Assembly (NCBI GenBank): GCA_024641665.1
Contig: JAHECP010000010.1
Span: 3,941 to 67,940 of the forward strand
Direction: 5' to 3'
Length of the DNA: 64,000 nucleotides
From: Acidobacteriota bacterium
Lineage (GTDB): Bacteria; Acidobacteriota; Vicinamibacteria; Vicinamibacterales; JAHECP01
In this document: one piece after another, positions 29,747-64,000 of the stretch
How the letters are laid out: each line of letters begins with the position of its first letter
How positions within the stretch are numbered: the stretch's first letter is position 1
Program-made: the position numbers and the translations under genes
The notes under the pieces: generated by a model
What the model was told of the DNA's origin: nothing
The model's database searches: none
Seen by the model: the letters and a program-made list of their open reading frames with translations, nothing else

Positions 29747-29765
29747 CGTCCTCCCGGCCTCCATC

Positions 29766-30302: not shown

Positions 30303-30316
30303 ATCAGAACTCTGCA

Positions 30317-30341
30317 GGCTCACGGCTCAAAGGCTCAGGGC

Positions 30342-30345
<4 letters not shown>
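30317..30345. repeat. heptamer array (GGCTCAN)x4 at the actC-actD junction
   Basis: GGCTCAC GGCTCAA (A) GGCTCAG GGCTCAT. It overlaps the actC stop at 30342-30344. Confidence 0.7.
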
Positions 30346-31727
<1,382 letters not shown>

Positions 31728-31728
31728 G

Positions 31729-31811
31729 GGCTCAGGGCTCACGGCTCAAGGCTCACCCTTCGACTCGCTGCGCTCGCTCAGGGCAGGCGGCAGGGCTCAG
31801 GGCTCACACAG
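31729..31811. repeat. heptamer array (GGCTCAN)x4 plus a palindromic core and (GGCTCAN)x2 in the actB-actC spacer
   Basis: GGCTCAG GGCTCAC GGCTCAA GGCTCAC, then CCTTCGACTCGCTGCGCTCGCTCAGGGCAGG, then CGGCAGGGCTCAGGGCTCACACAG. Confidence 0.7.
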
Positions 31812-34800
31812 CTACGCGTGTTCCGGCGCCTGCGCGCGCCGGGCCTCCTCCAGCGTCGGGTTCGGGTTCCGCAGCGCGGCCAGATACGTAGTCCGCGGCC
31901 GCGTGTTGAGCTCGGCGAGCATGCCGTAGTTGCGCGCCTCCGCCTTCAGCGTCGCCACGCGGCTGTTCGGGTCGTTCAGATCGCCGAAGACGATCGCCTG
32001 CGACGGACAGACCTGCTCGCAGGCCGTCACCACCTCGCCGTCGCGGATCGTCCGCTTCTCCTCCTCGGCGCGGATGCGCCCGTGCGTGATGCGCTGCACG
32101 CAGTAGGTGCACTTCTCCATCACGCCGCGGCTGCGCACGGTCACGTCGGGGTTGCGCTGCAGCTTGAACGGCTCGGTCGTCCAGTCCTGGTACAGCAGGA
32201 AGTTGAACCGGCGCACCTTGTACGGGCAGTTGTTCGAGCAGTACCGCGTGCCCACGCACCGGTTGTAGACCATGTCGTTGAGGCCCTCGGAGCTGTGCAC
32301 CGTGGCCCCCACCGGGCAGACCGGCTCGCAGGGCGCGTTCTCGCACTGCATGCACGGCACCGGCTGGTTGTAGATCTCCGGGTCGTCGAGCGCGCCCGCG
32401 TAGTAGGTGTCGAGCCGGATCCACTGCATTTCGCGGCCGGCCTTGACCTGCTCCTTGCCGACCACCGCGATGTTGTTCTCGGCCTGGCACGCCGTGACGC
32501 ACGCGTTGCAGCCCGTGCACGAGGTCAGGTCGATCGCCATGCCCCACTTGTAGCCGGTGTACTCGTGCTCGGGATACAGCGTCAGCGTCCTGGGCGGCGT
32601 CTCGCCCATCTCGTGCACGAACTCGGGGTGCTCCAGGTACTCCGCCAGCGTGCCCGCGCGGAACACGTTGCGCCCTTCCATCAGGAAGTGGTGCTGCGTC
32701 GCCGCGATCTCGTGCCGGTCGCCGGTCCGCGCCACCTCGAGGCCCGCGCCGACCCACGGCGCCGCCGAGGTCCGCAGCAGGTAGGCGTTGAAGCCCACGC
32801 CGTTGCCCACGCGGCCGACCAGCGCGCGGCCGTAGCCGAGCGTGATCGACACCGCGCCGTCGGCGTGCCCGGGCACGATCCAGACCGGCGCCCGGAGCGT
32901 CCGCCCGCCGTACTTCAGCTCGACGACGTCCATGTTCGCGACGCCCAGCCGCTCGGCCGCCCGCGGGCTCATCGACGCCACGTTGTCCCACGTGATCTTG
33001 CTGTGCGGCTTCGACAGCTCCTGCAGCCAGCCGTTGTTCGCGAACCGGCCGTCGTACAGGCTCGTGTCGGCCGCGAACACCAGGTCGAGCCCCGCGGCGC
33101 CCGACGGCGGCGCGGCGGCGCCCGCGAGCGACGCGACCGGGCCCGGATCGACCGCGGAGAGCGCCGTCCCGCGGATGAACCCGTCGTTGAGCGCGGTGCG
33201 CCACAGGGTGTCGAGGTCCGGGAACGGCTTGCCGTCCGCCCCGACCATCGCCCACGCGGTCTTCGTCGTGCCCGCCAGCGCGCGCTGCCAGTAGCCCTGG
33301 ACGATGTCGTGCCCCGTGCGATCCGGCTCGGTCGAGAGCATCGCCAGCACTTCGTGGGCCGACTTCCCGTCGTAGAGCGGCGCGATGAGCGGCTGGATGA
33401 TCGTCACCGTGCCGTCGTACACCCGCGCGTCGCCCCAGGCCTCGAGGTAGTGCGTCTCGGGCAGCGTCCAGTGGCAGAACTCCGCCGTCTCGTTCGCGTG
33501 CTGGCCGAGGTACACCACCAAGCTGGCCCGCTGGATCCGCTCGGCGAACCGCAGATCCGCCGGCGCCGCGTAGACGGGGTTCCCGCCGACGACCAGCAGC
33601 AGCTCGACCTTGCCGGCGTCCAGATCCGCCGCGAGGTCCGCCAGCGACGCGGTCTGCTCCACCGGGCTCGCGTCCACCGGCTCGGTGTACTCGACCGTCC
33701 GGCCGACGCCACCGAGCGCCCGGTTCATCGCGTGCGCCAGCGCGTGCACGATCGGCGGCTGCGTCTCGCCCGCCACGACGAGCGCGCGCCCCGGGTGCGC
33801 CTGCAGGTCCTCGACGATCGCGGGGATCCACCGGTCGCGGGCCTCGGCCGGCAGCGGACCGCCGGCGACGCCCGCCACGCCGAGCGCGGTCGCCATGGCG
33901 CGCGCGAAGGCCTCGACCTCGCGCGGCGCGAGCGGCATCCGGTGGTCGGCCTTCGGCCCGGTGATGCTGACCGTCGTCTCGACCATGTAGAGCCGGTTCA
34001 TGGCCTTCTGGTCGCCGGCCACGCGCCGCCGCGCCGCGAATTCGCGCGCGTGCCGCAGGTGGTCGGGGCCCGCGCCGAGGAAGTCCGCGTCGAGCGACAG
34101 GATCACGTCGGCCTGGTCGAGGTGGTAGTGCGCGTCGAGCGGACGGCCGAACGCCAGCCGCGCGCCGGCGCGCGCCTGGTCACGGTTCACCGGCTCGTAC
34201 TGGTGCCACCTGGCCGCGGGCATCTCCTCGAGCAGCTGCTGGATCTCGTCGGCCAGCGACGGCGAGGAGATCGTCTCGGTCAGCAGTCGGAGGCCCGCGC
34301 CCTTCTGCGCCCGCTGGGCCGCCATCGCCGACTGCATCGCGCCGAGGAACGCGCTCCAGGGCCTGACCGCGCCGCGGAAGCGAACCGCCTGCATCCGGTC
34401 CGGGTCGTAGAGGTCCAGGATGGACGCCTGCGTCAGGTGGCTCGTCGCGCCGGCGCTCGCCGGATGATCGGGATTGCCCTCGATCTTGGTGGGCCGCCCC
34501 ATGTGGCTTTCCGCCAGGATGGGGTGGGCGATCCCGCCGAACGGCATGGCCGTGGCGAAGAACAGCGGCGTGCCCGGAACCACCTCTTCGGGCGCCTTCA
34601 CGTACGGCACGATGGTCTCGGTGGGCTGCTTGGTGCAGGCGCCGACGCCGGCCAGCGCCAGCGAGGCCCCCATGAGCTTCAGGAACTGCCGGCGGCCGAC
34701 CGGGTCGGTCCACTGGGCGGCCTGCTCGGAGAACTCCCGGTGCAGGTAGGCCTGGAACTCGGGCGTGTCCGCGACCTCCTCGAGGCTGCGCCAATAGGTG

Positions 34801-34847
34801 CGGCCGTCGAGGTTGGCGAGACGGTGACGAATGACTGAAAGGTCCAT
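31812..34847 (-). CDS. actB: Alternative Complex III subunit ActB (fused molybdopterin-like + 4Fe-4S ferredoxin-like domains, Tat-exported)
   Basis: 1011 aa with a twin-arginine signal (GRRQFLKLMGASLALAGVGAC). The C-terminal half carries Cys clusters CTGCNACVTAC, CMQCENAPC and CVGTRYCSNNCPYK. Confidence 0.9.
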   Translation of the reverse strand: MDLSVIRHRLANLDGRTYWRSLEEVADTPEFQAYLHREFSEQAAQWTDPVGRRQFLKLMGASLALAGVGACTKQPTETIVPYVKAPEEVVPGTPLFFATAMPFGGIAHPILAESHMGRPTKIEGNPDHPASAGATSHLTQASILDLYDPDRMQAVRFRGAVRPWSAFLGAMQSAMAAQRAQKGAGLRLLTETISSPSLADEIQQLLEEMPAARWHQYEPVNRDQARAGARLAFGRPLDAHYHLDQADVILSLDADFLGAGPDHLRHAREFAARRRVAGDQKAMNRLYMVETTVSITGPKADHRMPLAPREVEAFARAMATALGVAGVAGGPLPAEARDRWIPAIVEDLQAHPGRALVVAGETQPPIVHALAHAMNRALGGVGRTVEYTEPVDASPVEQTASLADLAADLDAGKVELLLVVGGNPVYAAPADLRFAERIQRASLVVYLGQHANETAEFCHWTLPETHYLEAWGDARVYDGTVTIIQPLIAPLYDGKSAHEVLAMLSTEPDRTGHDIVQGYWQRALAGTTKTAWAMVGADGKPFPDLDTLWRTALNDGFIRGTALSAVDPGPVASLAGAAAPPSGAAGLDLVFAADTSLYDGRFANNGWLQELSKPHSKITWDNVASMSPRAAERLGVANMDVVELKYGGRTLRAPVWIVPGHADGAVSITLGYGRALVGRVGNGVGFNAYLLRTSAAPWVGAGLEVARTGDRHEIAATQHHFLMEGRNVFRAGTLAEYLEHPEFVHEMGETPPRTLTLYPEHEYTGYKWGMAIDLTSCTGCNACVTACQAENNIAVVGKEQVKAGREMQWIRLDTYYAGALDDPEIYNQPVPCMQCENAPCEPVCPVGATVHSSEGLNDMVYNRCVGTRYCSNNCPYKVRRFNFLLYQDWTTEPFKLQRNPDVTVRSRGVMEKCTYCVQRITHGRIRAEEEKRTIRDGEVVTACEQVCPSQAIVFGDLNDPNSRVATLKAEARNYGMLAELNTRPRTTYLAALRNPNPTLEEARRAQAPEHA

Positions 34848-34895
34848 GGAATCGGTGTCTGTCCGGCCAACCGTGACCTGGTCCGTGGCGTCGCC

Positions 34896-35555
34896 TCAGC
34901 GGTGGCAGGTCGAGCAGCTCGTGATCTGCTGCACGCCTGCGACGTTGTATTCCTTCACCAGACGCCGGCCGAGCTCGATCTGGTTGGCCGGCGGCTGATA
35001 CTGCATGTTGAACACCTGGTCCCGCGGCCGAAGGAACTCCTCCGGGTGGCGGTGGCAGTTGATGCACCACTCCATCTGCAGGGTGTTCTCCTTGTACATG
35101 AGGGGCATCTGGTCGACCCGGCCATGGCAGGTCGCGCAGCCGACGCCCTTGCTCACGTGGATGGAGTGGTCGAAGTAGACGAAGTCGGGCAGGTCGTGCA
35201 CGCGCGTCCACGCGAGCGGCGTGTCGTTGCGGAAGCTCGCCCGCACCGGCTCGAGCAGGGCCGCGTTCGTGAAGAGCTGCGAGTGACAGTTCATGCAGGT
35301 CTTCGTCGGCGGGATGTTCGCGAAGCCCGAGGTCTCCACCGTGGTGTGGCAGTACCGGCAGTCGATGCCCATGCCGCCCGCGTGGTGCTTGTGGCTGAAG
35401 GGGACCGGCTGGGGTCTGGGGACGTCGACGCGCGTGATGTAGTCCGAACGGGGGACCGCGACGATCAACCAGCCGAACACGCCGCCGGCCAGCACGACCG
35501 CCACGAGACTCGCGCGGGCAAGGGTGTTGGCATTCTTGGTGAAGATCTGGCTCAT
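34896..35555 (-). CDS. actA: Alternative Complex III subunit ActA (pentaheme cytochrome c)
   Basis: Five CxxCH motifs: CRYCH, CMNCH, CATCH, CINCH, CSTCH. N-terminal anchor MSQIFTKNANTLARASLVAVVLAGG. Start taken at ATG 35555. Confidence 0.9.
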   Translation of the reverse strand: MSQIFTKNANTLARASLVAVVLAGGVFGWLIVAVPRSDYITRVDVPRPQPVPFSHKHHAGGMGIDCRYCHTTVETSGFANIPPTKTCMNCHSQLFTNAALLEPVRASFRNDTPLAWTRVHDLPDFVYFDHSIHVSKGVGCATCHGRVDQMPLMYKENTLQMEWCINCHRHPEEFLRPRDQVFNMQYQPPANQIELGRRLVKEYNVAGVQQITSCSTCHR

Positions 35556-35715
35556 GCGGTTTCCGCTCGCGATGCGCGCGCTCGCCCCGTCTGCACCGGG
35601 TCCGGACGCCTGCCTGTTGGGAGGAAGACGGCCGCGAGTATAGCCCACGCGCGCGCACATTCGCCACGCGCGGCTGAGCTGGAGTTGAACTGGTCCGAGA
35701 TGCGACCTCTTATGA

Positions 35716-35731
35716 TGTGAAACCTTTCACA
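35716..35731. promoter_or_regulatory. perfect CRP/FNR-family type palindrome TGTGA-N6-TCACA upstream of actA
   Basis: TGTGAAACCTTTCACA, a 7+7 perfect inverted repeat. It sits in a locally AT-richer patch 161 nt upstream of the actA start and 245 nt upstream of the divergent nitroreductase gene. Confidence 0.45.
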
Positions 35732-43679: not shown

Positions 43680-44027
43680 ATGACGCGGTCGCTGGCTCTC
43701 CGGATCGTGGCGCTCCTGGCAGTCCTGGCGGTGGGGGCGTCGGTCGTCACGCCCGCCTTTGCGGAGGTGACGGCCCGCCAACCGTGCGCGCCGGGTCCTG
43801 ACGGCTGCCCGCGCTCATCGGTGCTCGCCTCGTGCTGCTGCGGTCAGGGGAGCCCGGCGGTACCGGGGGCGCAGCTCCAGCCGGCCGGCGCGGTCCCGTC
43901 ATGGGCCCTCTCGCGTGGGCCCCTCGGGGTGGCGGCCACGCCGGGTTTGACGGCGCCCGCCCTCACGCCGCGACACGGACACCTGTCCGCCGATCTCACG
44001 ACCCTCTTATCCACCCTCCTGATCTAG
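43680..44027 (+). CDS. small secreted Cys-containing protein (hypothetical) heading the RND efflux cluster
   Basis: Signal peptide MTRSLALRIVALLAVLAVGASVVTPAFA, then CAPGPDGCPRSSVLASCCCGQG. Confidence 0.55.
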   Translation: MTRSLALRIVALLAVLAVGASVVTPAFAEVTARQPCAPGPDGCPRSSVLASCCCGQGSPAVPGAQLQPAGAVPSWALSRGPLGVAATPGLTAPALTPRHGHLSADLTTLLSTLLI

Positions 44028-44169
44028 GCCAAACGGCTTGCCGGGAGGCGCTCGCGCGGCGGGAACGACCGCGCGCGTCCCGAGTCTCCGTGCCGGCGCG
44101 GGCCCGGTGCACGTCCGCCGTCCCGCCGCCGAGCCGGGGCACGAACCACGCATTAACGAGAGCGAAGAG

Positions 44170-45504
44170 ATGAAGCACGTGAAGGTTCTGCACATCGTGG
44201 GGCTGGTCATGGTCCTGGCCGCGACCTCCGTCGCGCGTGGGCGCGCGCAGGAGGTCCCGCCGCCGGACCAACCCGAGTACTTCGCGGCCGAGCCGGCACT
44301 GCGGGCGCTGGTGGCGCGCGCGCTGGACGCGAACCCCGGTCTCAAGGAGGCGGAGCTGCGCTATCGCGCCACGCTCGAGCAGGTGCCGCAGGTCACGGCG
44401 CTGCCGGACCCGATGGTGACCTTCACGCAGGCGATCCGGAGCGTCGAGACCCGAGTGGGCCCGCAGCAGAACGCCGTGATGCTCAGCCAGGCGTTCCCGT
44501 GGTTCGGCAAGCTCGACCTGAAGGGGCAGATGGCGGTGAAGGCCGCGGCGGCGGCGTCCGAGGCGTACGCCGCGAAGCAGCGTGACGTCATTGCGCAGGT
44601 GAAGGCGGCCTTCTACGGCCTGGCCTACGTGGATGCGGCGGTCGGCATTGCCGAAGAAGAGCAGTCGCTGCTCGCGCACTACGAGCGTCTCGCCGAAGAC
44701 CGCTACGCCAGCGGCCAGGGGCTGCAGCAGGCGGTGATCAAGATTCAGGCGGAGCTCACGAGGATCATGAACCGGCTGCTGATGCTGCGCGAGCAGCGCG
44801 CGTCGCTGGCGGCGCACCTGAACACGCTCGTCGACGCCCCGCCCGACGCGGCGGTGCCTCCGGTCCGTACGGCCGCGCCGCCGATCGACGTGGCGTCCTC
44901 GCTCGACCAGGGCGCGCTGTACGCGCTCGGCGAGGCCAACCGGCACGAGATCAAGGCCGCCGACGCGCAGGTCGACCGCGACGAACGGGCGGTGGCGCTG
45001 GCCAGGAAGAACTACTGGCCCGACATCGTCCTCTCGGCGGGGTTCGTGAACGTGGGCCACCGGCACGATCCGGCCGGTATCGCGTCGCCGCCGCCCGACA
45101 ACGGCAAGAACGCCCTGACGGTCTCGGTGGGCGTGTCGGTGCCGATCTGGCGGGACAAGCTCAAGGCGGCGGTGCGGCAGGCGACCGACCAGGTGGCCGC
45201 CGGGGAGCAGAGCCGCGCGAAGATCCTCAACGACATCCAGCAGGACGTGCGCGATCAGGTGATCGCGCTTCAGACGCTCGCCGATCAGATCGATCTCTTC
45301 CAGCGCGTGCTGATTCCGCAGGCGCACGAAGCGCAGCGATCCACCGAGGCGGCGTACCAGACCGGCCAGGTCGGCGTGCTCGACCTGCTCGACAGCGAGC
45401 GCGTGCTGTTCGACGTCCGGCTGGTGAACACGAAGCAGCAGTCCGACTACTTGATCGCGCTGGCGCGGCTCGAGCGCGCCGTCGGCACGAAGTTTCCACG
45501 ATAG
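44170..45504 (+). CDS. TolC-family outer-membrane efflux protein
   Basis: ATG 44170 (MKHVKVLHIVGLVMVLAATSVARGRAQE). Two-repeat OEP architecture, ending ...ALARLERAVG. Confidence 0.85.
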   Translation: MKHVKVLHIVGLVMVLAATSVARGRAQEVPPPDQPEYFAAEPALRALVARALDANPGLKEAELRYRATLEQVPQVTALPDPMVTFTQAIRSVETRVGPQQNAVMLSQAFPWFGKLDLKGQMAVKAAAAASEAYAAKQRDVIAQVKAAFYGLAYVDAAVGIAEEEQSLLAHYERLAEDRYASGQGLQQAVIKIQAELTRIMNRLLMLREQRASLAAHLNTLVDAPPDAAVPPVRTAAPPIDVASSLDQGALYALGEANRHEIKAADAQVDRDERAVALARKNYWPDIVLSAGFVNVGHRHDPAGIASPPPDNGKNALTVSVGVSVPIWRDKLKAAVRQATDQVAAGEQSRAKILNDIQQDVRDQVIALQTLADQIDLFQRVLIPQAHEAQRSTEAAYQTGQVGVLDLLDSERVLFDVRLVNTKQQSDYLIALARLERAVGTKFPR

Positions 45505-45516
45505 ACGAGGTCGGGG

Positions 45517-46929
45517 ATGAAGAAGATTCTCGCGTTCCTGTTCGTATTCGCGCTCGGCATCGCGTCGGCGGCGTTCGTGCTCGCGAACCCGTTCGGCTGG
45601 AGCTGGGTGGGCACCGTGCGTGCCCGGCTCGTCCCGCCGGGCACGGGTACCGCCGGCGCGGGGCCGGCGGCGCGGAAGATCAAGTACTGGCGGGCGCCGA
45701 TGGACCCCTCCTACATCAGCGACAAGCCGGGCAAGTCGCCGATGGGCATGGATCTCGTACCGGTCTACGAGGACGAAGACACGGAGACACCGCCCGGGTT
45801 CGTCCAGATCGATCCGTCCTTCGTCCAGACGATCGGCGTCCAGTCGCAGGAGGTGAAGCGGACGGACATTCCGTTCACGATCCGCACGGTCGGCACGCTC
45901 GGCTACGACGACCAGCAGGTTGTTTCGGTGACGACGAAGTACGACGGCTGGATCGAGAAGGTCTACGTCAACTACGTCGGCGAGACGGTGAAGAAGGGGC
46001 AGAGCCTCTTCGAGATCTACAGCCCGCAGCTCGTGACCACCGAGAAGGAGTACCTGCAGGCGATCGCCTACGCGCACGAGCTGGCGAGCCAGTCGTATCC
46101 GGACATTGCCGGGCGCGCGCAGTCGCTCGTCGAGTCGGCGCGCCAGCGCCTGAAGTACTGGGACATCAGCGACGAGCAGATCGCCGCGCTGGAGCGCACG
46201 CGCGAGCCGCTCCGTACGCTGGCCGTCGTCTCACCCGTCAGCGGGGTGATCGTGCAGAAGATGGACCAGGCGCTCGAGGGCATGTTCGTGAAGGCGGGCA
46301 TGAACCTCTACAAGATCGCCGACCTCTCGAGCATCTGGGTGTCTGCGGAGGTCTTCGAGAACCAGGCGCCCTGGCTGCGTGTGGGGCAGCGGGCGACGAT
46401 CGAGCTGGCGTACGATCCCGGGCGCGTCTACACGGGGAGGGTCCGCTACATCTACCCGTACCTGAGCGAGAAGACCCGTACGCTGAAGGTCTCGATCGAG
46501 TTGCCGAATCCCGGGCTGAAGCTCCGCGCGGACATGTACGTCAACGTGACGATGGACGTCCCGTCGGTGCGCAACGTCGTGGCGGTGCCGTCCGACGCCA
46601 TCATCAGATCGGGCACTCGTGACGTCGTCGTGCTGGACCTGGGCGGCGGCAAGTTCCAGGCCCGGGACGTGGAGCTGGGCGTGAGCGGGCAGGGCGTGTC
46701 GGAGGTGAAGCGCGGCCTCGCCGCGGGCGATCGCGTGGTCGTGTCGGCGCAGTTCCTGATCGACTCCGAGAGCAACCTGCGTGAGGCCATTCGCAAGTTG
46801 ACGGGTGGCGGCGAGGCTCCGGGATCGGGACCGGGCGCCACGGACACGACGGACATACAGCGCGGGCCGGACACGGGCGGACCCGCGGCGCCCCGACCCG
46901 GCGCGAGCCAGGACCACCCGCACCGCTGA
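45517..46929 (+). CDS. cusB: heavy-metal efflux RND periplasmic adaptor (CusB-like)
   Basis: 470 aa. YWRAPMDPSYISDKPGKSPMGMDLVPVY is the Met-rich N-terminal segment typical of CusB-type adaptors. HlyD-like barrel follows. Confidence 0.85.
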   Translation: MKKILAFLFVFALGIASAAFVLANPFGWSWVGTVRARLVPPGTGTAGAGPAARKIKYWRAPMDPSYISDKPGKSPMGMDLVPVYEDEDTETPPGFVQIDPSFVQTIGVQSQEVKRTDIPFTIRTVGTLGYDDQQVVSVTTKYDGWIEKVYVNYVGETVKKGQSLFEIYSPQLVTTEKEYLQAIAYAHELASQSYPDIAGRAQSLVESARQRLKYWDISDEQIAALERTREPLRTLAVVSPVSGVIVQKMDQALEGMFVKAGMNLYKIADLSSIWVSAEVFENQAPWLRVGQRATIELAYDPGRVYTGRVRYIYPYLSEKTRTLKVSIELPNPGLKLRADMYVNVTMDVPSVRNVVAVPSDAIIRSGTRDVVVLDLGGGKFQARDVELGVSGQGVSEVKRGLAAGDRVVVSAQFLIDSESNLREAIRKLTGGGEAPGSGPGATDTTDIQRGPDTGGPAAPRPGASQDHPHR

Positions 46930-46937
46930 GGGCCGAC

Positions 46938-49900
46938 ATGCTCGAGAAGATCATCGACTGGTCGCTGCGGAACAAGTTCTTCGTGATCCTCGCGACGCTT
47001 CTCGTGTCGCTGTGGGGCCTCTACGCGCTGCACTCGACGCCGCTCGACGCGATCCCGGATCTCTCCGACGTGCAGGTCATCATCTACACCGAGTACCCGG
47101 GGCAGGCCCCGCAGATCGTCGAGGACCAGGTCACGTATCCCATCACGACACAGATGCTGGCGGTGCCGTACGCCAAGGTGGTGCGCGGCTACTCGTTCTT
47201 CGGCTTCTCGTTCGTCTACGTCATCTTCGAGGACGGCACGGATCTCTACTGGGCGCGCAGCCGGGTGCTGGAGTACCTCAACTACGTGAGCAGCCGCCTG
47301 CCGCGCGGCGTGACGCCCTCGCTGGGTCCCGACGCGACCGGGGTGGGCTGGGCGTTCATGTACGCCCTCAAGTCGAACAAGCGGAACTTGGCCGAGCTCC
47401 GCTCTATTCAGGATTGGTACCTCAAGTACGAGCTGACCTCCGTCCAGGGGGTGTCGGAGGTGGCGAGCATCGGCGGCTTCGTGAAGCAGTACCAGATCAC
47501 CGTCGATCCGAACCGCCTCCGTGCCTACAACATTCCCATCTCGAAGATTCGGGCCGCGGTCCAGCGGAGCAACAGTGAGGTGGGCGGCCGCCTGATCGAG
47601 ATGGCCGAGAGCGAGTTCATGATCCGCGGCGAGGGCTACATCAAGAACGTCCACGACATCGAGAGCATCGCGCTCGGGGTGGACAGCCGCGGCACGCCCA
47701 TCCTCCTGAAGGACGTGGGGACCGTGCAGCTCGGTCCCGAGATGCGCCGCGGTCTGGCGGAGCTGGACGGCCAGGGCGAGGTCGTCGGGGGCATCGTCGT
47801 CGTGCGCTTCGGCGCGAACGCCTACGACGTCATCAGACGGGTGAAGGCGAAGCTCGCGGAGCTCAAGCAGGGGTTGCCAGAGGACGTGCAGATCGTGACC
47901 GTGTACGACCGCTCGGGCCTCATCCAGCGGTCGATCGACACGTTGCGCGAGAAGCTGATCGAGGAGAGCCTCGTCGTGGCGCTGGTGTGCCTGCTGTTCG
48001 TCCTGCACGTGCGATCGGCGCTCGTCGCGATCCTCACGCTGCCCGTGGCCATTCTCATGGCGTTCATCGTCATGTACTACCAGGGGATCAACGCCAACAT
48101 TATGTCGCTCGGCGGCATCGCCATCGCCATAGGCGCGATGGTGGACGCGGCGATCGTCATGATCGAGAACGCGCACAAACACCTGGAACACTACGGCGGC
48201 AAGAAGCCGCACTGGGAGATCATCGCCGACGCCGCCAAGGAGGTCGGGCCCACGCTCTTCTACGCGCTGCTCGTGATCACCGTGTCGTTCGTGCCGGTCT
48301 TCACGCTCGAGGCGCAGGAGGGGCGACTCTTCAAGCCCCTGGCCTTCACGAAGACCTACTCGATGGCGGCCGCTGCGATCCTGTCGGTGACCATCGTGCC
48401 GGTGCTCATGGGCTACTGGATTCGCGGGCGCATCCGCCCGGAGGGCCGCAACCCCATCAGCCGCCTGCTCATTGCGCTCTACCGGCCCGTGCTGTACGGC
48501 GTCCTGCGCTGGCGGTGGGCGATCCTGGGCCTCACGATGGTGGCGTTCGCGTTGACCTGGGTGCCGTATTCCCGGATGGGGTCCGAGTTCATGCCGCCGA
48601 TGTGGGAGGGCGACCTGCTCTACATGCCCACGATGTTCCCCGGCGTGTCGATCACCAAGGCGAGGGAGGTCCTGCAGCAGACCGACCGCATCATCCGGTC
48701 GTTCCCCGAGGTCGAGCGCGTGTTCGGCAAGGTCGGCCGCGCCGACACGGCGACCGATCCGGCGCCGCTCAGCATGATCGAGACGACGATCACCTTGAAA
48801 CCGGAGGACCAGTGGCCGCCGGGCATGACCCCCGAGAAGCTGACGCAGGAGATGAACCAGGCGCTCCAATTCCCGGGGCTCACCAACGCCTGGACGATGC
48901 CGATCAAGACGCGCATCGACATGCTGTCGACCGGCATCAAGACGCCGGTGGGCATCAAGATCGCCGGGCCCGACCTGCAGACGCTCCAGGACCTCGGCCA
49001 GCAGGTCGAAGCCGTGATCCACAACGTGCCCGGGACCCTGTCGGTCTACGCCGAGCGCGTCATGGGCGGCAATTACCTGGACTTCAAGATCCGGCGCGAC
49101 GCCATCGCCCGCTACGGCCTCACCGTCGGTGACGTGCAGGACGTCATCCAGTCGGCCATCGGCGGCATGAACATCACGACCACCGTGGAAGGGCTGGAGC
49201 GCTACCCGGTGAACCTGCGCTACAGCCGCGAGCTGCGCGACACCCTGCCGGCGCTCGCCGACATCCTCGTGCCGACGCCGACGGGCCAGCAGATCCCGCT
49301 CGGCCAGCTCGCCGACCTGTCCACCGTCAAGGGACCGCCGGCCATCAAGACGGAAGGCTCGCGACCGAACGCCTGGATCTACGTGGACATCCAGAACATC
49401 GACGTGGGCACCTACGTGAAGATGGCGCAACGGGCGGTCGCCGAGCAGGTCCACCTCCCGGCGGGCTACAATCTGACGTGGAGCGGGCAGTACGAATACA
49501 TGATGCGAGCCCAGCAGCGGCTCATGTACGTGGTGCCGATGACGCTCGTGATCATCTTCATCATCATCTACGTCAACACCAGCTCGGTGTTCAAGACGCT
49601 GGTGGTGCTGCTGGCCGTGCCGCTGTCGCTCATCGGGGCGTTCTGGCTGCTGTACCTGCTCGGCTACAACACGAGCATCGCCGTGTGGGTCGGCATCATC
49701 GCGCTGGCCGGCGTGAGTGCCGAAACCGGCGTCGTCATGCTGCTCTACCTCGACGGCGCCTTCGAGGAGGCGACGCGCGAAGGCCGCCTGCACTCGAGAG
49801 CCGATCTCGTCGAGGCCGTCTACGACGGCGCGGTCAAACGCGTCCGGCCGGTCATCATGCTCGGCACCGTCATCACCGCGGGCCTGCTGCCGATCATGTG

Positions 49901-50105
49901 GAGCCACGGCACCGGCGCCGACGTCATGAAGCGCATCGCCGCGCCCATGGTCGGCGGCGTCATCACGTCGGTCATCGTCGTCCTGCTCGTCTACCCGGCC
50001 ATCTACTTCGTCTGGCGGGGATGGCGCCTGCCGAAGCTCTCGCCGACGTCCGGCGCCGGGTCGCAGGGCTTGACGGACGAGCACGGAAGCGCGACGGTAG
50101 GGTAA
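46938..50105 (+). CDS. cusA: CusA/CzcA-family heavy-metal efflux RND transporter
   Basis: 1055 aa. DAIPDLSDVQVIIYTEYPGQAPQIVEDQVTYPI, FEDGTDLYWARSRVLEYLN and EGDLLYMPT closely track what I recall of E. coli CusA. Confidence 0.95.
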   Translation: MLEKIIDWSLRNKFFVILATLLVSLWGLYALHSTPLDAIPDLSDVQVIIYTEYPGQAPQIVEDQVTYPITTQMLAVPYAKVVRGYSFFGFSFVYVIFEDGTDLYWARSRVLEYLNYVSSRLPRGVTPSLGPDATGVGWAFMYALKSNKRNLAELRSIQDWYLKYELTSVQGVSEVASIGGFVKQYQITVDPNRLRAYNIPISKIRAAVQRSNSEVGGRLIEMAESEFMIRGEGYIKNVHDIESIALGVDSRGTPILLKDVGTVQLGPEMRRGLAELDGQGEVVGGIVVVRFGANAYDVIRRVKAKLAELKQGLPEDVQIVTVYDRSGLIQRSIDTLREKLIEESLVVALVCLLFVLHVRSALVAILTLPVAILMAFIVMYYQGINANIMSLGGIAIAIGAMVDAAIVMIENAHKHLEHYGGKKPHWEIIADAAKEVGPTLFYALLVITVSFVPVFTLEAQEGRLFKPLAFTKTYSMAAAAILSVTIVPVLMGYWIRGRIRPEGRNPISRLLIALYRPVLYGVLRWRWAILGLTMVAFALTWVPYSRMGSEFMPPMWEGDLLYMPTMFPGVSITKAREVLQQTDRIIRSFPEVERVFGKVGRADTATDPAPLSMIETTITLKPEDQWPPGMTPEKLTQEMNQALQFPGLTNAWTMPIKTRIDMLSTGIKTPVGIKIAGPDLQTLQDLGQQVEAVIHNVPGTLSVYAERVMGGNYLDFKIRRDAIARYGLTVGDVQDVIQSAIGGMNITTTVEGLERYPVNLRYSRELRDTLPALADILVPTPTGQQIPLGQLADLSTVKGPPAIKTEGSRPNAWIYVDIQNIDVGTYVKMAQRAVAEQVHLPAGYNLTWSGQYEYMMRAQQRLMYVVPMTLVIIFIIIYVNTSSVFKTLVVLLAVPLSLIGAFWLLYLLGYNTSIAVWVGIIALAGVSAETGVVMLLYLDGAFEEATREGRLHSRADLVEAVYDGAVKRVRPVIMLGTVITAGLLPIMWSHGTGADVMKRIAAPMVGGVITSVIVVLLVYPAIYFVWRGWRLPKLSPTSGAGSQGLTDEHGSATVG

Positions 50106-50116
50106 GGAGCTGAATC

Positions 50117-50341
50117 ATGTGGAACTACGGCATGCACATGGGCGGCATGTGGGTCTGGTGGCTGCTCATTCTGGCGCTGATCGTCGGGGCCGCCTGGGTC
50201 GTGGGCCGCGCGGCGGCGGGCGGCGGCGGGCGGAACGCCCCGCCCGCCGAGTCCCCGGAGACCATCCTGAAGCAGCGGTACGCCCGCGGCGAGATCGACC
50301 GAGAGGAATACGACCGACGGCTGAGCGACCTCAGGAAATAA
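50117..50341 (+). CDS. SHOCT-domain small membrane protein
   Basis: 74 aa with one TM helix (WVWWLLILALIVGAAWVV) and C-terminal LKQRYARGEIDREEYDRRLSDL. Confidence 0.7.
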   Translation: MWNYGMHMGGMWVWWLLILALIVGAAWVVGRAAAGGGGRNAPPAESPETILKQRYARGEIDREEYDRRLSDLRK

Positions 50342-50351
50342 CAGGTGGACG

Positions 50352-50678
50352 ATGACCTACCGGAAGATTGCGGCGATCATCAGACGCGAGCGCCTGGCCG
50401 ACGTCGAGCGACGCCTGATCGAACTCTGCGTCGGCGGGATCACGGTCACGCCCGTCAAGGGCTTCGGCGAGTACGCCAACTACTTCCGCGGCGACCTGCT
50501 GGTGCCCCACGTGCGCCTGGAGATCTTCACGACCGCCGCGCGCGCGGACGAGATCGTGCAGGCCATTCTGGACGAGGCCTGCACCGAGCGCGCCGGCGAC
50601 GGCATCGTGGCCGTGCAGGCGGTCGAGCGGGTCGTGCGCGTGCGCACGAAGGCGCCGGCGACGGCCGACAGCCTGTAG
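50352..50678 (+). CDS. P-II (GlnB-like) family signal-transduction protein
   Basis: 108 aa. [39 protein letters not shown] aligns with the GlnB N-terminal beta-alpha-beta and T-loop start. The T-loop looks shortened. Confidence 0.75.
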
Positions 50679-50746
50679 CCGGCCGGTCACGCAGGACGGC
50701 GGCCGGAGCGCGGTCACCGCCCGAAAGAGGGAGAAAGGAGTCGACG

Positions 50747-53314
<2,568 letters not shown>

Positions 53315-57705: not shown

Positions 57706-58001
57706 CCGCAAGGAACGGCTGTTCGGGATTCTGCCGTGACAGGCCCAGAGCCGAGAGCCAGGAGCCAATCGTCACACCAACATTTCGTTCTCTCAGTCTT
57801 ACCCCCATTACCTGGGTACAAGGTCAAGGTCCGGCTCGCCGTACGTTGTTTGAGACAGGCGCTGTTTGAAACCAGACAGGACGAGGATGGGCGGATTACC
57901 GATAGCCCTGATTGGACCACATCGCGCCGGTGTTCGGGTCCAGTTGCCCCTTTTTCCTTGGGTACGTCTTTTGCCTCTCCGTCCGTAATAGGAGATCGAC
58001 G

Positions 58002-58322
58002 ATGGAAGGCCTGATCACGTTTCTGCTGTTCGGGGCGCTCTTCTTCGTGCTGATGCGCTTCGGGTGCGGGGCGCACGTGCACGGTGGTCATGGCGGTCAC
58101 GGCAGTCCGGGGGAAGCCGAGGGCCACGCCGGACACGGTCAGAGTGGCGGGCTCACCTCCGCCGGTTCGATAGATCCCGTGTGTGACATGGACGTCGCGG
58201 AGGGTCAGGGCTATGCCAAGATGCACGAGGGAAAGGCCTTCCGATTCTGCTCTCGGCGCTGCCTGGATCAATTCGAATCGAATCCCGAGCGATACGTCGC
58301 CCAGGAAGGAGGACGGTCATGA
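58002..58322 (+). CDS. membrane-anchored His-rich YHS/TRASH-domain protein
   Basis: ATG follows AGGAG. TM helix (LITFLLFGALFFVLMRF), His/Gly-rich stretch (HVHGGHGGHGSPGEAEGHAGHG), then DPVCDMDV...FRFCSRRCLDQF. Confidence 0.75.
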   Translation: MEGLITFLLFGALFFVLMRFGCGAHVHGGHGGHGSPGEAEGHAGHGQSGGLTSAGSIDPVCDMDVAEGQGYAKMHEGKAFRFCSRRCLDQFESNPERYVAQEGGRS

Positions 58323-58591
58323 AGCAGGGGCTCTCGCTGACCGCGTTCGGGCACGCGACCAGCCTGTTGCTGGCGATCAGCTTCGTGTTGTGCGTCGCGT
58401 TCGATTTGGTGTTTCCGTCGCACGCGATGTTTCGGACCTGGCAGGCGCTGCTCCCGGGCTTCAGGTGGCTCACCTGGGGCAGCTTCTTCCTCGGCCTGGT
58501 CGAGGCGTACGGCTATGGCTGGTACGTCGCCCTCGTGTGGGTCCCGATCTACAACGTCTTCGCCGTGCGGCGCGCGGGTCTCACCTCCTGA
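58319..58591 (+). CDS. small two/three-TM membrane protein (hypothetical)
   Basis: 90 aa. ATGA overlap with the preceding YHS gene. Hydrophobic throughout. Confidence 0.6.
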   Translation: MKQGLSLTAFGHATSLLLAISFVLCVAFDLVFPSHAMFRTWQALLPGFRWLTWGSFFLGLVEAYGYGWYVALVWVPIYNVFAVRRAGLTS

Positions 58592-58739
58592 CCCCGCGCG
58601 GCAGCGGCACGGTCATGACAGGAAGCGTTCGCCCGGGTGTCGATCTGCGTCAAACCTCGGAGCGTGATTCTGAATCCGGATGAGAGGGAATCCCAGCGCG
58701 CGCCGGTTTCGCGCGCCTGTCGGCAGAGAGGGTGGCAGA

Positions 58740-59216
58740 ATGAAGAAGGCACTCGCGGCGGTTCTCTTGACGTCCTTCGTGGCCGCCTGTGGCGGCGCGT
58801 CTCCCGCGTCGCCGTCCTCGCCGGTGGCCGCGATGTCCGTGGCGGGCACGTGGGTCGGCAGCCCGTCGGACTCGAGCAGCGCTCTGGGTCCGGGCAACGT
58901 GATGGGGCAGGCCGGCATGGGCGCGATGACGTGGCAGCTCACCGCGAGCGGTTCCACGATCACGGGCACGATCGGCTTCGCCGACATGCACGGCGGGGCG
59001 CCCGGTTCCTTCTCGGGCACGATGTCCGACGACGAGGACTTCACCTTCACGCTGGACATGGCGATGGCGAGCATGATGTCGTCCGGGTGCGTGGCGCACG
59101 CCACGGGCACCGCGCACGTCGACGGCACCGTGATGACGATCACGGGCGCGTACGCCGGGTCGAACACGTGCTACGGGAGCTTCACCGACGGCCACTTCAC
59201 GATGACGCACCAGTGA
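58740..59216 (+). CDS. Met-rich lipoprotein (hypothetical, possible metal binding)
   Basis: Lipobox LLTSFVAACGG. Met clusters NVMGQAGMGAM and LDMAMASMMSSGC. Confidence 0.65.
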   Translation: MKKALAAVLLTSFVAACGGASPASPSSPVAAMSVAGTWVGSPSDSSSALGPGNVMGQAGMGAMTWQLTASGSTITGTIGFADMHGGAPGSFSGTMSDDEDFTFTLDMAMASMMSSGCVAHATGTAHVDGTVMTITGAYAGSNTCYGSFTDGHFTMTHQ

Positions 59217-59297
59217 CTGGGGGCACGCGCCTCGCGCGCCACACCCGTCCGGCCTCCTGACCTCTCGTGAGTCGCCTGCGGCGGACCTCCGTCGGCC

Positions 59298-59465
59298 TCA
59301 GTGCTGAGGGCCAGGACCGCCAGCGGCCGCGTAGCGGCCGGGATTGGCGTCGAACTTGGTCCTGCAGGATGCACTGCAGAAGTAGTAGGTGGCTCCCTTG
59401 TGGGTGCTCGTCCCAGCAGCCTTCTTTTCGTCCACCGCCATTCCGCACACCGGATCCTTGGCCAT
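59298..59465 (-). CDS. small YHS/TRASH-domain protein (55 aa, below the ORF-track size cut-off)
   Basis: Own translation: MAKDPVCGMAVDEKKAAGTSTHKGATYYFCSASCRTKFDANPGRYAAAGGPGPQH*. RBS GAGAGG lies 7 nt upstream. Confidence 0.75.
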   Translation of the reverse strand: MAKDPVCGMAVDEKKAAGTSTHKGATYYFCSASCRTKFDANPGRYAAAGGPGPQH

Positions 59466-59531
59466 GATTCACCTCTCGCGTGCATCGAAACATGCCGCGC
59501 TCCATCGAACCGGAGACGCGACGTAACGAGA

Positions 59532-63245: not shown

Positions 63246-63770
63246 TCAGTCGTCGCCTCCCGACACCCAGTTGGACAGCACCTGAACGGTCCGATCCGGG
63301 TTCGCCGGATCGTTGGTAGCGAGATGGACCCGGAAATCGTGCGGGCCGTCCATCCCGCTCTGCATGGTGAACTGCATCGAGATCGTCGTGCGCTCGCCGG
63401 GCCGCAGGACCATCGAACCGATGGTCGGCGCGGGCGGTCAACAGCCCTCGACGACGCTCACCCAGGGACGCGACTGGAACCGAAGCAGGCCGGTGCCCGT
63501 GTTCATCACCTGCAGGGACGCGGTGGCCCAGTCGCCGAGGCGTACGTCGCCGAGGTCGATCGACCCGGGCGTGACGAGCAGCGCAGGCCGGCCTCCTGGG
63601 ACCGGATCGGACACGCCGGCCTGCTGCGTGCGCCAGCCCGCGAACGTGACGACGAGGGCCGCGAGGCCGGCAATCGCGACGATCCAGCGAAGGCGCGTCC
63701 GACGCGGCCGCGCGTCGACGCCGGGCGCGGGGCCGGGGCGCTTCGCGCGCTTCCGTTTCCTCTTACTCAT
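63246..63770 (-). CDS. DUF1573-like membrane-anchored protein interrupted by an in-frame TGA (selenocysteine candidate or nonsense mutation)
   Basis: GGAGGA-N5-ATG at 63770. MSKRKRKRAKRP..., TM helix (WIVAIAGLAALVVTFAGW), then LLVTPGSIDLGDVRLGDWATASLQVMNTGTGLL...VVEGC, then TGA (63438-63440). The same frame continues as PPAPTIGSMVLRPGERTTISMQFTMQSGMDGPHDFRVHLATNDPANPDRTVQVLSNWVSGGDD* with good GC3 bias. Confidence 0.55.
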
Positions 63771-64000
63771 CTCGATCCTCCAGGTCCCGGGACGCGTGAA
63801 CGTCAGGCTGACCTCGCTGACCTGCCCCGGCTTCACGTCCACGACCGGCAGGTCCGTCCGTCCCACGGCAAACCCGTGCATCACGTCGTCGGAGGTCAGC
63901 CGCAGCCGGAGCGGCTGGCCGACGGTCGCCGTGAGGTGGTCGGGCGTCCATCCGCCGTCGCTGGCCATGCGGGCGTGAAGGGTGATGGTCGCGTGAGGTT
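63771..64000 (-). CDS. cupredoxin-like domain protein, C-terminal fragment; open at the window edge and lacking its own stop codon
   Basis: ...HATITLHARMASDGGWTPDHLTATVGQPLRLRLTSDDVMHGFAVGRTDLPVVDVKPGQVSEVSLTFTRPGTWRIE runs in frame straight into the ATG at 63770. The usual C-terminal Cys/His/Met copper ligands after PGTW are absent. Confidence 0.5.

What the first reader, a model, noticed from the sequence alone, without database searches (positions are those of the whole stretch)
63246..63770. In-frame TGA directly after a Cys codon in a DUF1573-like gene, followed by a SECIS-like hairpin: selenocysteine candidate
The ORF stops at TGA (63438-63440) immediately after ...VVEGC. The same frame then continues for 63 more codons with strong GC3 bias. 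That tail reads PPAPTIGSMVLRPGERTTISMQFTMQSGMDGPHDFRVHLATNDPANPDRTVQVLSNWV, which looks like the natural continuation of this domain family. From memory, related proteins have a second Cys at this position (a GCC or CGC motif). A Cys homolog at the TGA position is the classic signature of a Sec/Cys pair.

Eleven nucleotides after the TGA lies a perfect 8-bp hairpin, GACCATCG-GUU-CGAUGGUC (63408-63426). This places the apical loop 19 nt from the UGA and starts the loop with G-U. Both fit the commonly used bacterial SECIS descriptor.

The alternative is a simple TGY-to-TGA nonsense mutation.
Basis: partly seen in the sequence, partly recalled or inferred. Interest (0 to 1): 0.7.

Follow-up and report, generated by a model that had tools for sequence, protein, structure and literature searches.

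The report
New selenocysteine protein in copper operon
The in-frame TGA is almost certainly read as selenocysteine: this gene belongs to a widespread, so far unannotated family of membrane-anchored envelope proteins with a Cys-Sec (or Cys-Cys) pair, encoded next to copper-protein genes, and gene callers wrongly split it in two.

Summary
ATG is at 63770 and Cys110 (TGT) at 63443-63441. TGA is at 63440-63438. After an 11-nt spacer comes a perfect 8-bp hairpin with a GUU loop (63426-63408). Sixty-three more sense codons follow, ending in a real TGA stop at 63248-63246.

- In 65 family loci from genomes and metagenomes, this column is TGA 46 times, TGC/TGT 19 times, and never TAA or TAG.
- All full-length homologous proteins read VVEGC-C-PP.
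- The hairpin is 93.9% paired with compensatory changes at 5 of 8 pairs in TGA forms. It is at shuffle level (38%) in Cys forms.
- Codons after the TGA are under purifying selection (dN/dS 0.07-0.39).
- Two genomes with TGA forms carry known selenoprotein genes within 1 kb.

The protein has a one-pass membrane anchor and an Ig-like (PapD/HYDIN/DUF1573-like) domain. Invariant residues are G-C-[C/U]-P-P, Met136, Met140 and His144.

It is clustered with a PCYCGC protein, two CuA-type cupredoxins and a NapH-like ferredoxin. I infer copper(I) handling; this function is not shown.

The family differs from the one catalogued DUF1573 selenoprotein (UGC motif) and has no NCBIfam model. I could not test for Sec machinery in the window's own genome.

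The parts
63246..63770 (-). Complete recoded gene: 174 codons, with Sec (U) at codon 111. It encodes a membrane-anchored Ig-like protein with a G-C-U-P-P motif.
   Evidence: Full-length Cys homologues of 157-167 aa align end to end.
63776..63781 (-). Shine-Dalgarno-like GGAGGA, 5 nt before the ATG at 63770-63768.
   Evidence: Read directly.
63633..63686 (-). Predicted single transmembrane helix (WIVAIAGLAALVVTFAGW, residues 29-46). It follows a Lys/Arg-rich N-terminus, which implies an N-in, domain-out topology.
   Evidence: Sequence. The same layout is seen in all full-length homologues. The topology is inferred from the positive-inside rule.
63279..63581 (-). Ig-like beta-sandwich domain (residues 64-164) that spans the TGA.
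   Evidence: PF22544 at 28.3 bits and PF07610 (DUF1573) at 16.2 bits. An AF2 model of the 70%-identical Cys homologue P0002 has pLDDT 93.8 and 8 strands. The nearest PDB folds are HYDIN/PapD-like/ASH domains and 2qsv.
63438..63443 (-). Cys110 codon TGT followed by the Sec codon TGA (63440-63438).
   Evidence: Across 65 loci the column is TGA 46, TGC 17, TGT 2. Cys110 is invariant.
63408..63426 (-). SECIS-type hairpin. The 5' arm is 63426-63419, the GUU loop 63418-63416, and the 3' arm 63415-63408. It lies 11 nt after the UGA and encodes P115-V121 (PTIGSMV).
   Evidence: It is 93.9% paired, with compensatory changes at 5 of 8 pairs in 43 TGA sequences. The same columns are 38.2% paired in 19 Cys sequences.
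63330..63371 (-). Invariant F134-x-M136-x3-M140-x-G142-P-H144-D-F146-R147 loop/strand. This is the proposed second half of a metal site.
   Evidence: Invariant columns. Its position in the E-F loop comes from the AF2 secondary structure. That it lies close to the Cys-Sec loop is inferred from Ig topology, not measured.
63246..63248 (-). True stop codon of the gene, also TGA, with no hairpin after it.
   Evidence: It shows that TGA is still a stop in this organism.
63771..64000 (-). Remnant of the upstream COX2-like/cytochrome c gene. Relative to L001 it has a ~666-nt internal deletion that removes the CuA ligands and the haem domain. This leaves an ORF fused in frame to the Sec gene (called as the 218-aa protein P0001). 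It runs off the window.

Best explanation
Window 63770-63246 (minus strand) is one gene for a selenoprotein.

Decoding. When the ribosome reaches UGA (63440-63438), the hairpin 11 nt downstream acts as a bacterial SECIS. It has a 7-8 bp stem and an apical G-U-N loop. SelB carrying Sec-tRNASec is recruited, Sec is inserted at residue 111, and translation continues for 63 more codons.

Product. The protein is anchored by one N-terminal transmembrane helix. It exposes an Ig-like (DUF1573-like/PapD-HYDIN type) domain on the outer side of the membrane. On one end of that sandwich, the vicinal Cys110-Sec111 pair (G-C-U-P-P) probably forms a soft-metal site together with Met136, Met140 and His144.

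Function. The gene travels with a PCYCGC/CYCXC protein, two CuA-type cupredoxins (one fused to cytochrome c) and a NapH-like ferredoxin. In this window it also sits beside CusCBA, a YHS/HMBD CopA-type ATPase and small YHS proteins. I therefore think it binds or relays Cu(I) in the envelope, for CuA-site assembly or copper detoxification. Selenolate would replace thiolate as a ligand or redox partner.

What is shown: the conserved TGA, the Cys/Sec column, SECIS covariation, downstream purifying selection, the fold and the gene linkage.

What is inferred: SelB-dependent insertion in this particular organism, the topology, the metal site and the copper function.

My confidence is about 0.9 for 'Sec-encoding gene' and about 0.45 for 'copper handling'.
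For: - The codon at this column is TGA in 46 of 65 loci and TGC/TGT in 19, never TAA or TAG. The loci come from Chloroflexota, Gemmatimonadota, Actinomycetes and Acidimicrobiia MAGs.
- Close orthologues L001 and L004 have the same TGA and the same tail.
- Hairpin columns are 93.9% paired. There are 44 doubly changed cells at 5 of 8 pairs, no shuffle of 500 reaches this, and slid controls give 16-67%. RNAalifold recovers the same stem.
- In Cys forms the same columns are 38.2% paired, equal to shuffles.
- Third-codon positions inside the stem are invariant across 43 diverged sequences.
- dN/dS downstream of the TGA is 0.07-0.39, as low as or lower than upstream.
- The Pfam Ig domain spans the TGA.
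- The gene's own terminator is TGA, so the code is not reassigned.
- Known selenoprotein genes lie next to TGA forms. One is a CYCXC protein with U in HALG-U-GIC in L054. The other is an Rcas_1661-type DsbA-like protein with U-PYC in L041.
- On the NJ tree, Sec and Cys forms are interspersed. A Cys clade nested among Sec forms keeps the TIGSM peptide but has lost the hairpin.
- For function: PCYCGC lies within a few kb in about 55 loci.
- The full five-gene cluster is on the same strand in 26 loci, in at least three gene orders.
- The cluster proteins carry CuA motifs and NapH-like Fer4_5 domains.
- The window itself carries a copper island.
Against: - No selA, selB, selD or tRNA-Sec was found in the 64-kb window or in about 1 Mb of flanks. 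This is uninformative rather than negative, but Sec decoding is unproven for this genome.
- The single-sequence fold energy is unremarkable (z = -1.45).
- In this lineage the upstream COX2-cytochrome c gene carries a 666-nt deletion, so the operon may be decaying here.
- One homologue cluster (P0004) has Trp at this column.
- Copper binding rests on context and residue chemistry only. There was no hit to any known copper-chaperone family.
- I had no model coordinates to confirm that the Cys-Sec and Met/His loops touch.
Confidence: 0.85

Rival explanations
1. Pseudogene: a TGY-to-TGA nonsense mutation truncates a DUF1573-like gene after Cys110, and the tail is decaying non-coding DNA.
For: TGA is one step from TGC/TGT. 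The neighbouring COX2-cytochrome c gene in this lineage is clearly damaged. Gene callers stop at the TGA.
Against: The same TGA is found in 46 loci from several phyla. The tail is under purifying selection. It remains 93% identical in DNA to L001 without frame disruption. The hairpin covaries.
Confidence: 0.03
2. Two separate small genes, as currently called: a 110-aa anchored N-terminal piece and a 55-aa piece starting at ATG 63413.
For: Public gene calls list exactly these two products (P0005 and the 55-aa cluster). An ATG (Met120) lies 9 codons after the TGA.
Against: One Ig domain spans both pieces. Cys forms are continuous. The VVGSTT subgroup (L054, L058, L061, L064, L068) has no Met at that position to start a second gene. 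Codons between the TGA and Met120 are conserved.
Confidence: 0.02
3. UGA is read through without selenium. This could be near-cognate Trp or Cys insertion, or programmed leaky termination in the weak UGA-C context. The hairpin would act only as a roadblock that stimulates read-through.
For: All 46 genes have UGA followed by C. From my own knowledge, this is the leakiest bacterial context. One homologue cluster has Trp here (P0004). Sec machinery is not demonstrated for this genome.
Against: The alternative residue in homologues is Cys 19 times, which is the classic Sec/Cys signature. From my own knowledge, the hairpin geometry (11-nt spacer, ~17-19 nt stem-loop, G-U in the loop) matches the minimal E. 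coli fdhF SECIS. Known Sec families with TGA at their known Sec positions sit beside TGA forms.
Confidence: 0.05
4. Same selenoprotein, different job. The vicinal Cys-Sec pair is a redox centre (selenenylsulfide/selenol-thiol, as in the GCUG end of thioredoxin reductase). It would reduce disulfides or Cu(II) in the envelope, for example preparing CuA-site cysteines together with the Cys-rich PCYCGC partner. It would not carry metal itself. A variant of this idea is that it handles Hg or another soft metal rather than copper.
For: Most catalogued selenoproteins are redox proteins (PMC13188914). The partner PCYCGC family is Cys-rich and itself has Sec forms. A DsbA-like selenoprotein is adjacent in L041. 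Nine Cys forms occur with PCYCGC alone, without any cupredoxin.
Against: The invariant Met136/Met140/His144 look like Cu(I) ligands rather than redox residues. There is no thioredoxin fold. CU motifs in the 2026 catalogue are mostly in metal-binding proteins (SaoC, MbdU, HgcA, SaoL).
Confidence: 0.3

Closest known systems
DUF1573 domain-containing selenoprotein (PF07610, 'UGC' motif). It was found in Olavius algarvensis deltaproteobacterial symbionts and is listed in the 2022 and 2026 prokaryotic selenoprotein catalogues (PMC9312934, PMC13188914). It is probably the same as the family modelled by NCBIfam NF041425 'OS_HP2 family (seleno)protein'; I inferred that equivalence from list order and have not verified it.
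   Same: It has the same broad Ig-like/DUF1573 superfamily fold. It is a small Cys-motif protein with a Sec/Cys site in the loop after the same strand, and it is decoded through a bacterial SECIS.
   Different: The motif here is G-C-U-P-P (Sec follows the Cys), not U-G-C. The window protein scores 13.2 bits against a cut-off of 100 on NF041425 and 16.2 against 26.1 on PF07610. The taxa differ (Chloroflexota and Gemmatimonadota rather than Deltaproteobacteria). This family also has a conserved M-x3-M-x-G-P-H-D-F-R motif and a fixed gene partnership with PCYCGC and CuA proteins.
E. coli fdhF-type bacterial SECIS (SelB-binding hairpin immediately 3' of UGA)
   Same: The hairpin lies inside the ORF and starts 11 nt after the UGA. 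It is a ~17-19 nt stem-loop with G-U in the apical loop, 19 nt from the UGA. This falls within the 16-37 nt window of the bSECISearch descriptor (geometry; descriptor values from my own knowledge).
   Different: The loop is very short (3 nt, or 5 nt if the top G-C pair opens) and there is no evident bulged U. Rfam holds no model that matched. SelB binding is untested.
CYCXC/PCYCGC family (seleno)protein (PF13798; NF041379 OS_HP4, UxxC)
   Same: It is the constant gene neighbour of this family (about 55 of 70 loci). It is also an anchored, Cys-rich envelope protein with alternative Sec forms, including one right next to the CU gene in L054.
   Different: It has an unrelated sequence and fold. 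In the window's relatives it is all-Cys. No PCYCGC motif turned up in the window; in L001 that gene lies 3.4 kb further along the operon, which in the window would be beyond its end.
Periplasmic Cu(I) chaperones for CuA sites: PCuAC (DUF461), Sco1/SenC, and the membrane-anchored CupA of Streptococcus
   Same: This is a functional analogy only. These are small beta-sandwich domains, often membrane-anchored and facing outward, with Cys/Met/His Cu(I) ligands, encoded beside CuA-containing proteins.
   Different: There is no sequence or profile similarity. The ligand motif differs (CU...MxxxMxGPH rather than H(M)x10Mx21HxM or CxxxC). The use of selenium is new.

Membership tests
Bacterial selenoprotein gene (Sec-UGA plus SECIS) | In-frame UGA with conserved, selected coding sequence on both sides | tested here: met
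   dN/dS downstream is 0.07-0.39. One Pfam domain spans the UGA.
Bacterial selenoprotein gene (Sec-UGA plus SECIS) | Homologues carry Cys (or UGA) at the same column | tested here: met
   TGA 46, TGC 17, TGT 2 in 65 loci. All full-length proteins read GCCPP except P0004, which reads GCWPP.
Bacterial selenoprotein gene (Sec-UGA plus SECIS) | Stem-loop just 3' of the UGA with G(U) in the apical loop, maintained by selection | tested here: met
   11-nt spacer, 8-bp stem, GUU loop. 93.9% paired with covariation at 5 pairs in TGA forms, against 38.2% in Cys forms.
Bacterial selenoprotein gene (Sec-UGA plus SECIS) | selA, selB, selC (tRNA-Sec) and selD present in the same genome | not testable with these tools
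   None in the 64-kb window or in the flanks of 43 TGA loci. Indirect support: known Sec families with TGA occur in L054 and L041.
Bacterial selenoprotein gene (Sec-UGA plus SECIS) | Selenium actually incorporated (75Se labelling or MS) | not testable with these tools
   This needs an experiment.
Pfam DUF1573 (PF07610) | Score at or above the gathering threshold (26.1 bits) | tested here: not met
   16.2 bits, E = 0.011, for the read-through protein. Many Cys homologues do carry a precomputed PF07610 hit and are named DUF1573 by NCBI. The family therefore sits at the edge of DUF1573.
Pfam HYDIN/CFA65/VesB-like Ig domain (PF22544) | Score at or above the gathering threshold (25.5 bits), and an Ig-like sandwich fold | tested here: met
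   28.3 bits over residues 64-164. AF2 model with pLDDT 93.8. The top Foldseek hits are HYDIN/PapD-like domains.
Catalogued DUF1573 selenoprotein subfamily (UGC motif; probably NF041425 OS_HP2) | Sec in a U-G-C motif, and an NF041425 score of at least 100 bits | tested here: not met
   The motif is G-C-U-P-P. NF041425 scores 13.2 bits. The catalogue lists only the UGC form.
Known copper chaperones (PCuAC, Sco1, CopZ/HMA, CusF, CopC) | Profile match to the family and its ligand motif | tested here: not met
   No such Pfam or NCBIfam hit. No PDB sequence relative. The copper role is an analogy from context.

The most novel reading that the evidence does not exclude
This would be the first selenoprotein metallochaperone. 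A Cys-Sec Ig-domain protein would work with the PCYCGC protein to capture Cu(I) outside the membrane and load the CuA centres of a previously undescribed respiratory-type module. That module consists of two CuA cupredoxins, a cytochrome c and a NapH-like quinol-linked ferredoxin, and is conserved across Chloroflexota and Gemmatimonadota. If so, selenium availability would be coupled to copper-enzyme assembly in these abundant soil and groundwater bacteria.
Probability: 0.3. Interest if true: 0.75.

Novelty: new member of a known kind. Interest (0 to 1): 0.58.

Why it matters
- It adds a widely distributed selenoprotein (sub)family. Forty-six of the 65 family loci examined (61 from species-representative genomes, the rest metagenome contigs plus the window) carry the Sec form.
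- The family is absent from the 119-family catalogue of 2026 and from NCBIfam, so it is mis-annotated everywhere as two fragments.
- It extends selenium use in Chloroflexota and Gemmatimonadota.
- It gives a very clean natural example of SECIS covariation, and of SECIS decay after Sec-to-Cys replacement.
- It links a Cys-Sec site to a conserved but uncharacterised copper/CuA gene cluster. That suggests a metal-ligand role for selenium that can be tested directly.

Tried and rejected
- Rfam at gathering thresholds found nothing in the window. From my own knowledge, I do not think Rfam has a general bacterial SECIS model.
- ARAGORN found no tRNA in the window and only one tRNA-Val in 43 loci.
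- A Pfam scan of 30 window ORFs found no SelA, SelB or SelD.
- A scan of the window for other in-frame TGAs with coding signal on both sides gave only this gene.
- The single-sequence fold z-score is weak.
- Foldseek and PDB sequence searches gave only generic Ig-like domains and no functional analogue.
- The search of protein representatives was dominated by giant multi-Ig proteins and added little.
- Literature on PCYCGC and on DUF1573 plus copper was uninformative.
- A literature search for the Sec trait in Chloroflexi gave nothing I used.
- The nonsense-mutation and two-gene readings were rejected (see the rival explanations).
- General reassignment of TGA was rejected because the gene itself ends in TGA.

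Full report
**1. The observation**

The gene lies on the minus strand.
- The start ATG is at 63770-63768, preceded by GGAGGA at 63781-63776.
- Codon 110 is TGT (Cys, 63443-63441) and codon 111 is TGA (63440-63438).
- The frame then stays open for 63 sense codons, ending at a second TGA (63248-63246).
- Eleven nucleotides after the first TGA lies the perfect hairpin GACCAUCG-GUU-CGAUGGUC (63426-63408). Its loop starts 19 nt after the UGA.

Read through, the protein gives a single Ig-like Pfam match across the TGA (PF22544, residues 64-164, 28.3 bits). It also gives a sub-threshold DUF1573 match (16.2 bits). The two halves alone give nothing significant.

On this sequence alone the RNA fold is not remarkable (z = -1.45). 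Still, only 0.66% of window positions have a perfect 8-bp hairpin starting 8-20 nt downstream.

**2. Comparative evidence on the codon**

A protein search with the read-through sequence found about 15 full-length homologues that all read VVEGC-C-PP. It also found three short proteins (P0005, P0020, P0021) that end exactly at VVEGC.

The DNA of P0005 and P0020 (loci L001 and L004) shows TGA at that point, followed by the same conserved tail and the same hairpin.

A scan of one genome per species returned 70 loci.
- Most come from Chloroflexota, mainly Anaerolineae.
- Some come from Gemmatimonadota, Actinomycetes and Acidimicrobiia.

Across 65 loci where the column could be read, the codon is TGA 46 times, TGC 17 times and TGT twice. 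It is never TAA or TAG.

The gene's own terminator is TGA without a hairpin, so TGA has not been reassigned in general.

Downstream of the TGA, dN/dS between TGA-form pairs is 0.07-0.39. This is as low as or lower than upstream.

The second ORF that gene callers predict starts at Met120. That Met is absent in a whole subgroup (VVGSTT), so the tail cannot be an independent gene there.

**3. The hairpin**

I aligned 43 distinct TGA sequences in register.
- The 8 proposed pairs are formed in 93.9% of cells.
- Five pairs show changes on both sides, covering 44 cells. Examples are A-U to G-C at columns 19/35, C-G to U-A at 20/34, and A-U to G-C at 22/32.
- No shuffle of 500 reaches these values, and slid controls give 16-67% pairing.
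- RNAalifold independently returns the 7-bp core.
- Third-codon positions inside the stem (columns 21, 24, 30, 33) are invariant, although synonymous sites elsewhere are saturated.

In the 19 Cys-form sequences the same columns pair in 38.2% of cells, equal to the shuffles.

One Cys clade is nested among Sec forms (L032, L036, L037, L050). It keeps the peptide T-I-G-S/A-M/L but uses codons that break the stem. So the hairpin is not a by-product of the amino-acid sequence.

Several loop and context features hold across the set.
- The loop keeps G-U in 41 of the 43 sequences; L004 and L008 have GGU instead.
- The spacer is a constant 11 nt.
- The base after UGA is always C.

From my own knowledge, this geometry matches the minimal E. 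coli fdhF SECIS and the bSECISearch descriptor.

**4. Is selenocysteine decoded in these organisms?**

Neither the window nor the flanks contain selA/B/D or tRNA-Sec. With 64 kb this says nothing either way, and the rest of the genome is out of reach.

There is indirect support. A blind screen of all loci looked for in-frame TGAs aligned to Cys in homologues. Besides this family, it returned two further candidates, both known selenoprotein types.
- One is a PCYCGC/CYCXC gene in L054, with U in HALG-U-GICVD (49 of 49 homologues have Cys; top NCBIfam hit NF041379 'CYCXC family (seleno)protein').
- The other is a DsbA-like gene in L041, with U-PYC (top hit NF041057 'Rcas_1661 family thioredoxin-like (seleno)lipoprotein').
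- Both lie within about 1 kb of the TGA-form gene.

**5. The protein**

All homologues share three parts.
- A basic N-terminus.
- One hydrophobic helix.
- A domain of about 105 residues.

An AF2 model of the closest Cys homologue (P0002, 70% identical) is confident (pLDDT 93.8). It is an eight-strand sandwich. Its nearest solved folds are HYDIN/PapD-like/ASH domains and a Porphyromonas protein of unknown function, 2qsv. From my own recollection 2qsv is a DUF1573 protein; I did not check this.

The invariant residues are N90, G92, G109-C110-(C/U)111-P112-P113, P124-G125, F134, M136, M140, G142, H144, F146-R147, D154 and L165-S166-x-W168.

By strand order, three loops lie at the same end of the sandwich.
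- The B-C loop carries N90 and G92.
- The C'-D loop carries the Cys-Sec pair.
- The E-F loop carries Met136 and Met140; His144 sits at the start of the following strand.

This placement is a topological inference. I had no model coordinates.

**6. Genomic context**

A PCYCGC gene lies within a few kb in about 55 of 70 loci. In several Cys-form Chloroflexota it is the only constant neighbour.

In 26 loci (21 TGA, 5 Cys) a five-gene, same-strand cluster is complete. It comprises:
- a PCYCGC protein;
- a small cupredoxin with a CxxxCxxxHxxM CuA motif;
- a NapH/MauN-like Fer4_5 membrane ferredoxin;
- a COX2-like CuA domain fused to cytochrome c;
- this gene.

The gene order is permuted between lineages, which argues for functional linkage. 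None of the partners reaches the cut-off of any NCBIfam equivalog.

The window adds further copper and respiratory genes.
- CusC, CusB and an RND pump at 44023-50105.
- A CopA-type ATPase with YHS and HMBD domains at 50342-53311.
- Small YHS and DUF5676 genes.
- SCO1, an aa3-type oxidase and alternative complex III.

This is why I favour copper(I) handling. The evidence is contextual and my confidence is about 0.45. A redox role for the vicinal Cys-Sec pair is the main functional rival.

**7. A local peculiarity**

Relative to L001, the window's lineage has lost about 666 nt of the upstream COX2-cytochrome c gene, removing the CuA ligands and the haem domain. The stump now runs in frame into the Sec gene, producing the 218-aa call P0001.

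The same structure appears in an independent Logan assembly (L005).

The Sec gene keeps its own ribosome-binding site. It shows dN/dS of 0.31 against L001 downstream of the TGA, so I regard it as intact.

**8. Comparison with what is known**

The 2026 catalogue of 119 prokaryotic selenoprotein (sub)families lists one DUF1573 entry. It has a U-G-C motif and comes from the Olavius symbiont study (PMC13188914, PMC9312934, PMC1976440).

The present family differs from that entry in four ways.
- It has G-C-U-P-P.
- It scores 13 bits against a cut-off of 100 on NF041425.
- It has no NCBIfam model of its own.
- In public gene calls it is split into unnamed fragments of ~110 and 55 aa, whereas Cys forms are named 'DUF1573 domain-containing protein'.

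By the catalogue's own rule, a different Sec position or motif makes a separate subfamily. That makes this a new subfamily. The decoding mechanism itself is conventional.

On the family tree, Sec and Cys forms alternate, implying several conversions. The window groups with L001 and L004, next to Gemmatimonadota Sec forms.

**9. Verdict**

This is a genuine but so far unrecognised selenoprotein gene with a canonical, well-supported SECIS. It probably works in envelope copper handling.

Interest is moderate to good. It is a new, widespread member of a known kind, with a testable link between selenium and copper-centre assembly.

Noticed in passing
window 63771-64000 (minus strand); L005:346-660 compared with L001:9010-10008: The COX2-like/cytochrome c gene upstream has a ~666-nt internal deletion compared with the orthologue in L001. 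The deletion removes the CuA ligands and the whole cytochrome c domain. The remnant is fused in frame to the Sec gene, producing the 218-aa gene call P0001.
   Followed up: yes
L054:~9850-10290 (+), TGA at 10159: The PCYCGC/CYCXC gene next to the CU gene in this Anaerolinea MAG itself has an in-frame TGA in HALG-U-GICVD. All 49 aligned homologues have Cys there. This matches the known OS_HP4/CYCXC UxxC selenoprotein family (NF041379, 64.5 bits).
   Followed up: yes
L041, minus strand, TGA at 10960: A DsbA-like lipoprotein gene about 1 kb from the CU gene has TGA in FSDYQ-U-PYCG. Its top hit is NF041057, Rcas_1661 family thioredoxin-like (seleno)lipoprotein (166.6 bits). This would be a second selenoprotein in the same Chloroflexia genome.
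   Followed up: partly
L001:6725-10008 and 25 other loci: An uncharacterised conserved cluster comprises a PCYCGC protein, a small CuA-type cupredoxin, a NapH-like Fer4_5 membrane ferredoxin and a CuA-domain/cytochrome c fusion. It appears in at least three gene orders. None of the proteins reaches any NCBIfam equivalog cut-off. It may be a new electron-transfer or copper-processing module.
   Followed up: partly
window 2981-12509 (+): There are three tandem paralogous ORFs of ~990 aa. I scanned only the first (2981-5965): it has CarboxypepD_reg, Plug and outer-membrane beta-barrel domains, so it is a TonB-dependent-receptor-like protein. The other two I take to be the same from their matching length and codon composition.
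   Followed up: no
window 44023-53311 (+), and ~58000-59500: This region is a copper-resistance island. It holds a CusC-like OEP, a CusB-like protein with HMBD and a large ORF that I take to be an RND pump from its position and size (I did not scan it). It also holds a CopA-type P-type ATPase with YHS and two HMBD domains, plus small YHS and DUF5676 genes. The YHS family is itself a known selenoprotein family, but no in-frame TGA was seen here.
   Followed up: partly
window 23755-35726 (-): This region is a respiratory block. It holds COX1, COX2 fused to cytochrome c, SCO1/SenC, and alternative complex III-like genes (NrfD-type, molybdopterin/Fe-S and multihaem subunits).
   Followed up: no
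protein P0004 (JGI contig, 6 member sequences): One homologue cluster has Trp (GCWPP) at the Sec/Cys column while keeping the TIGSM peptide. TGG is one step from TGA. It may be a recent loss of Sec or an inactive copy.
   Followed up: no
L073 (2927-nt Anaerolineales contig), both strands: This short contig gave three GC-U-PP reading frames, each with its own in-frame TGA. Two were reported on the minus strand and one on the plus strand. I did not check their arrangement or whether all three are real genes.
   Followed up: no
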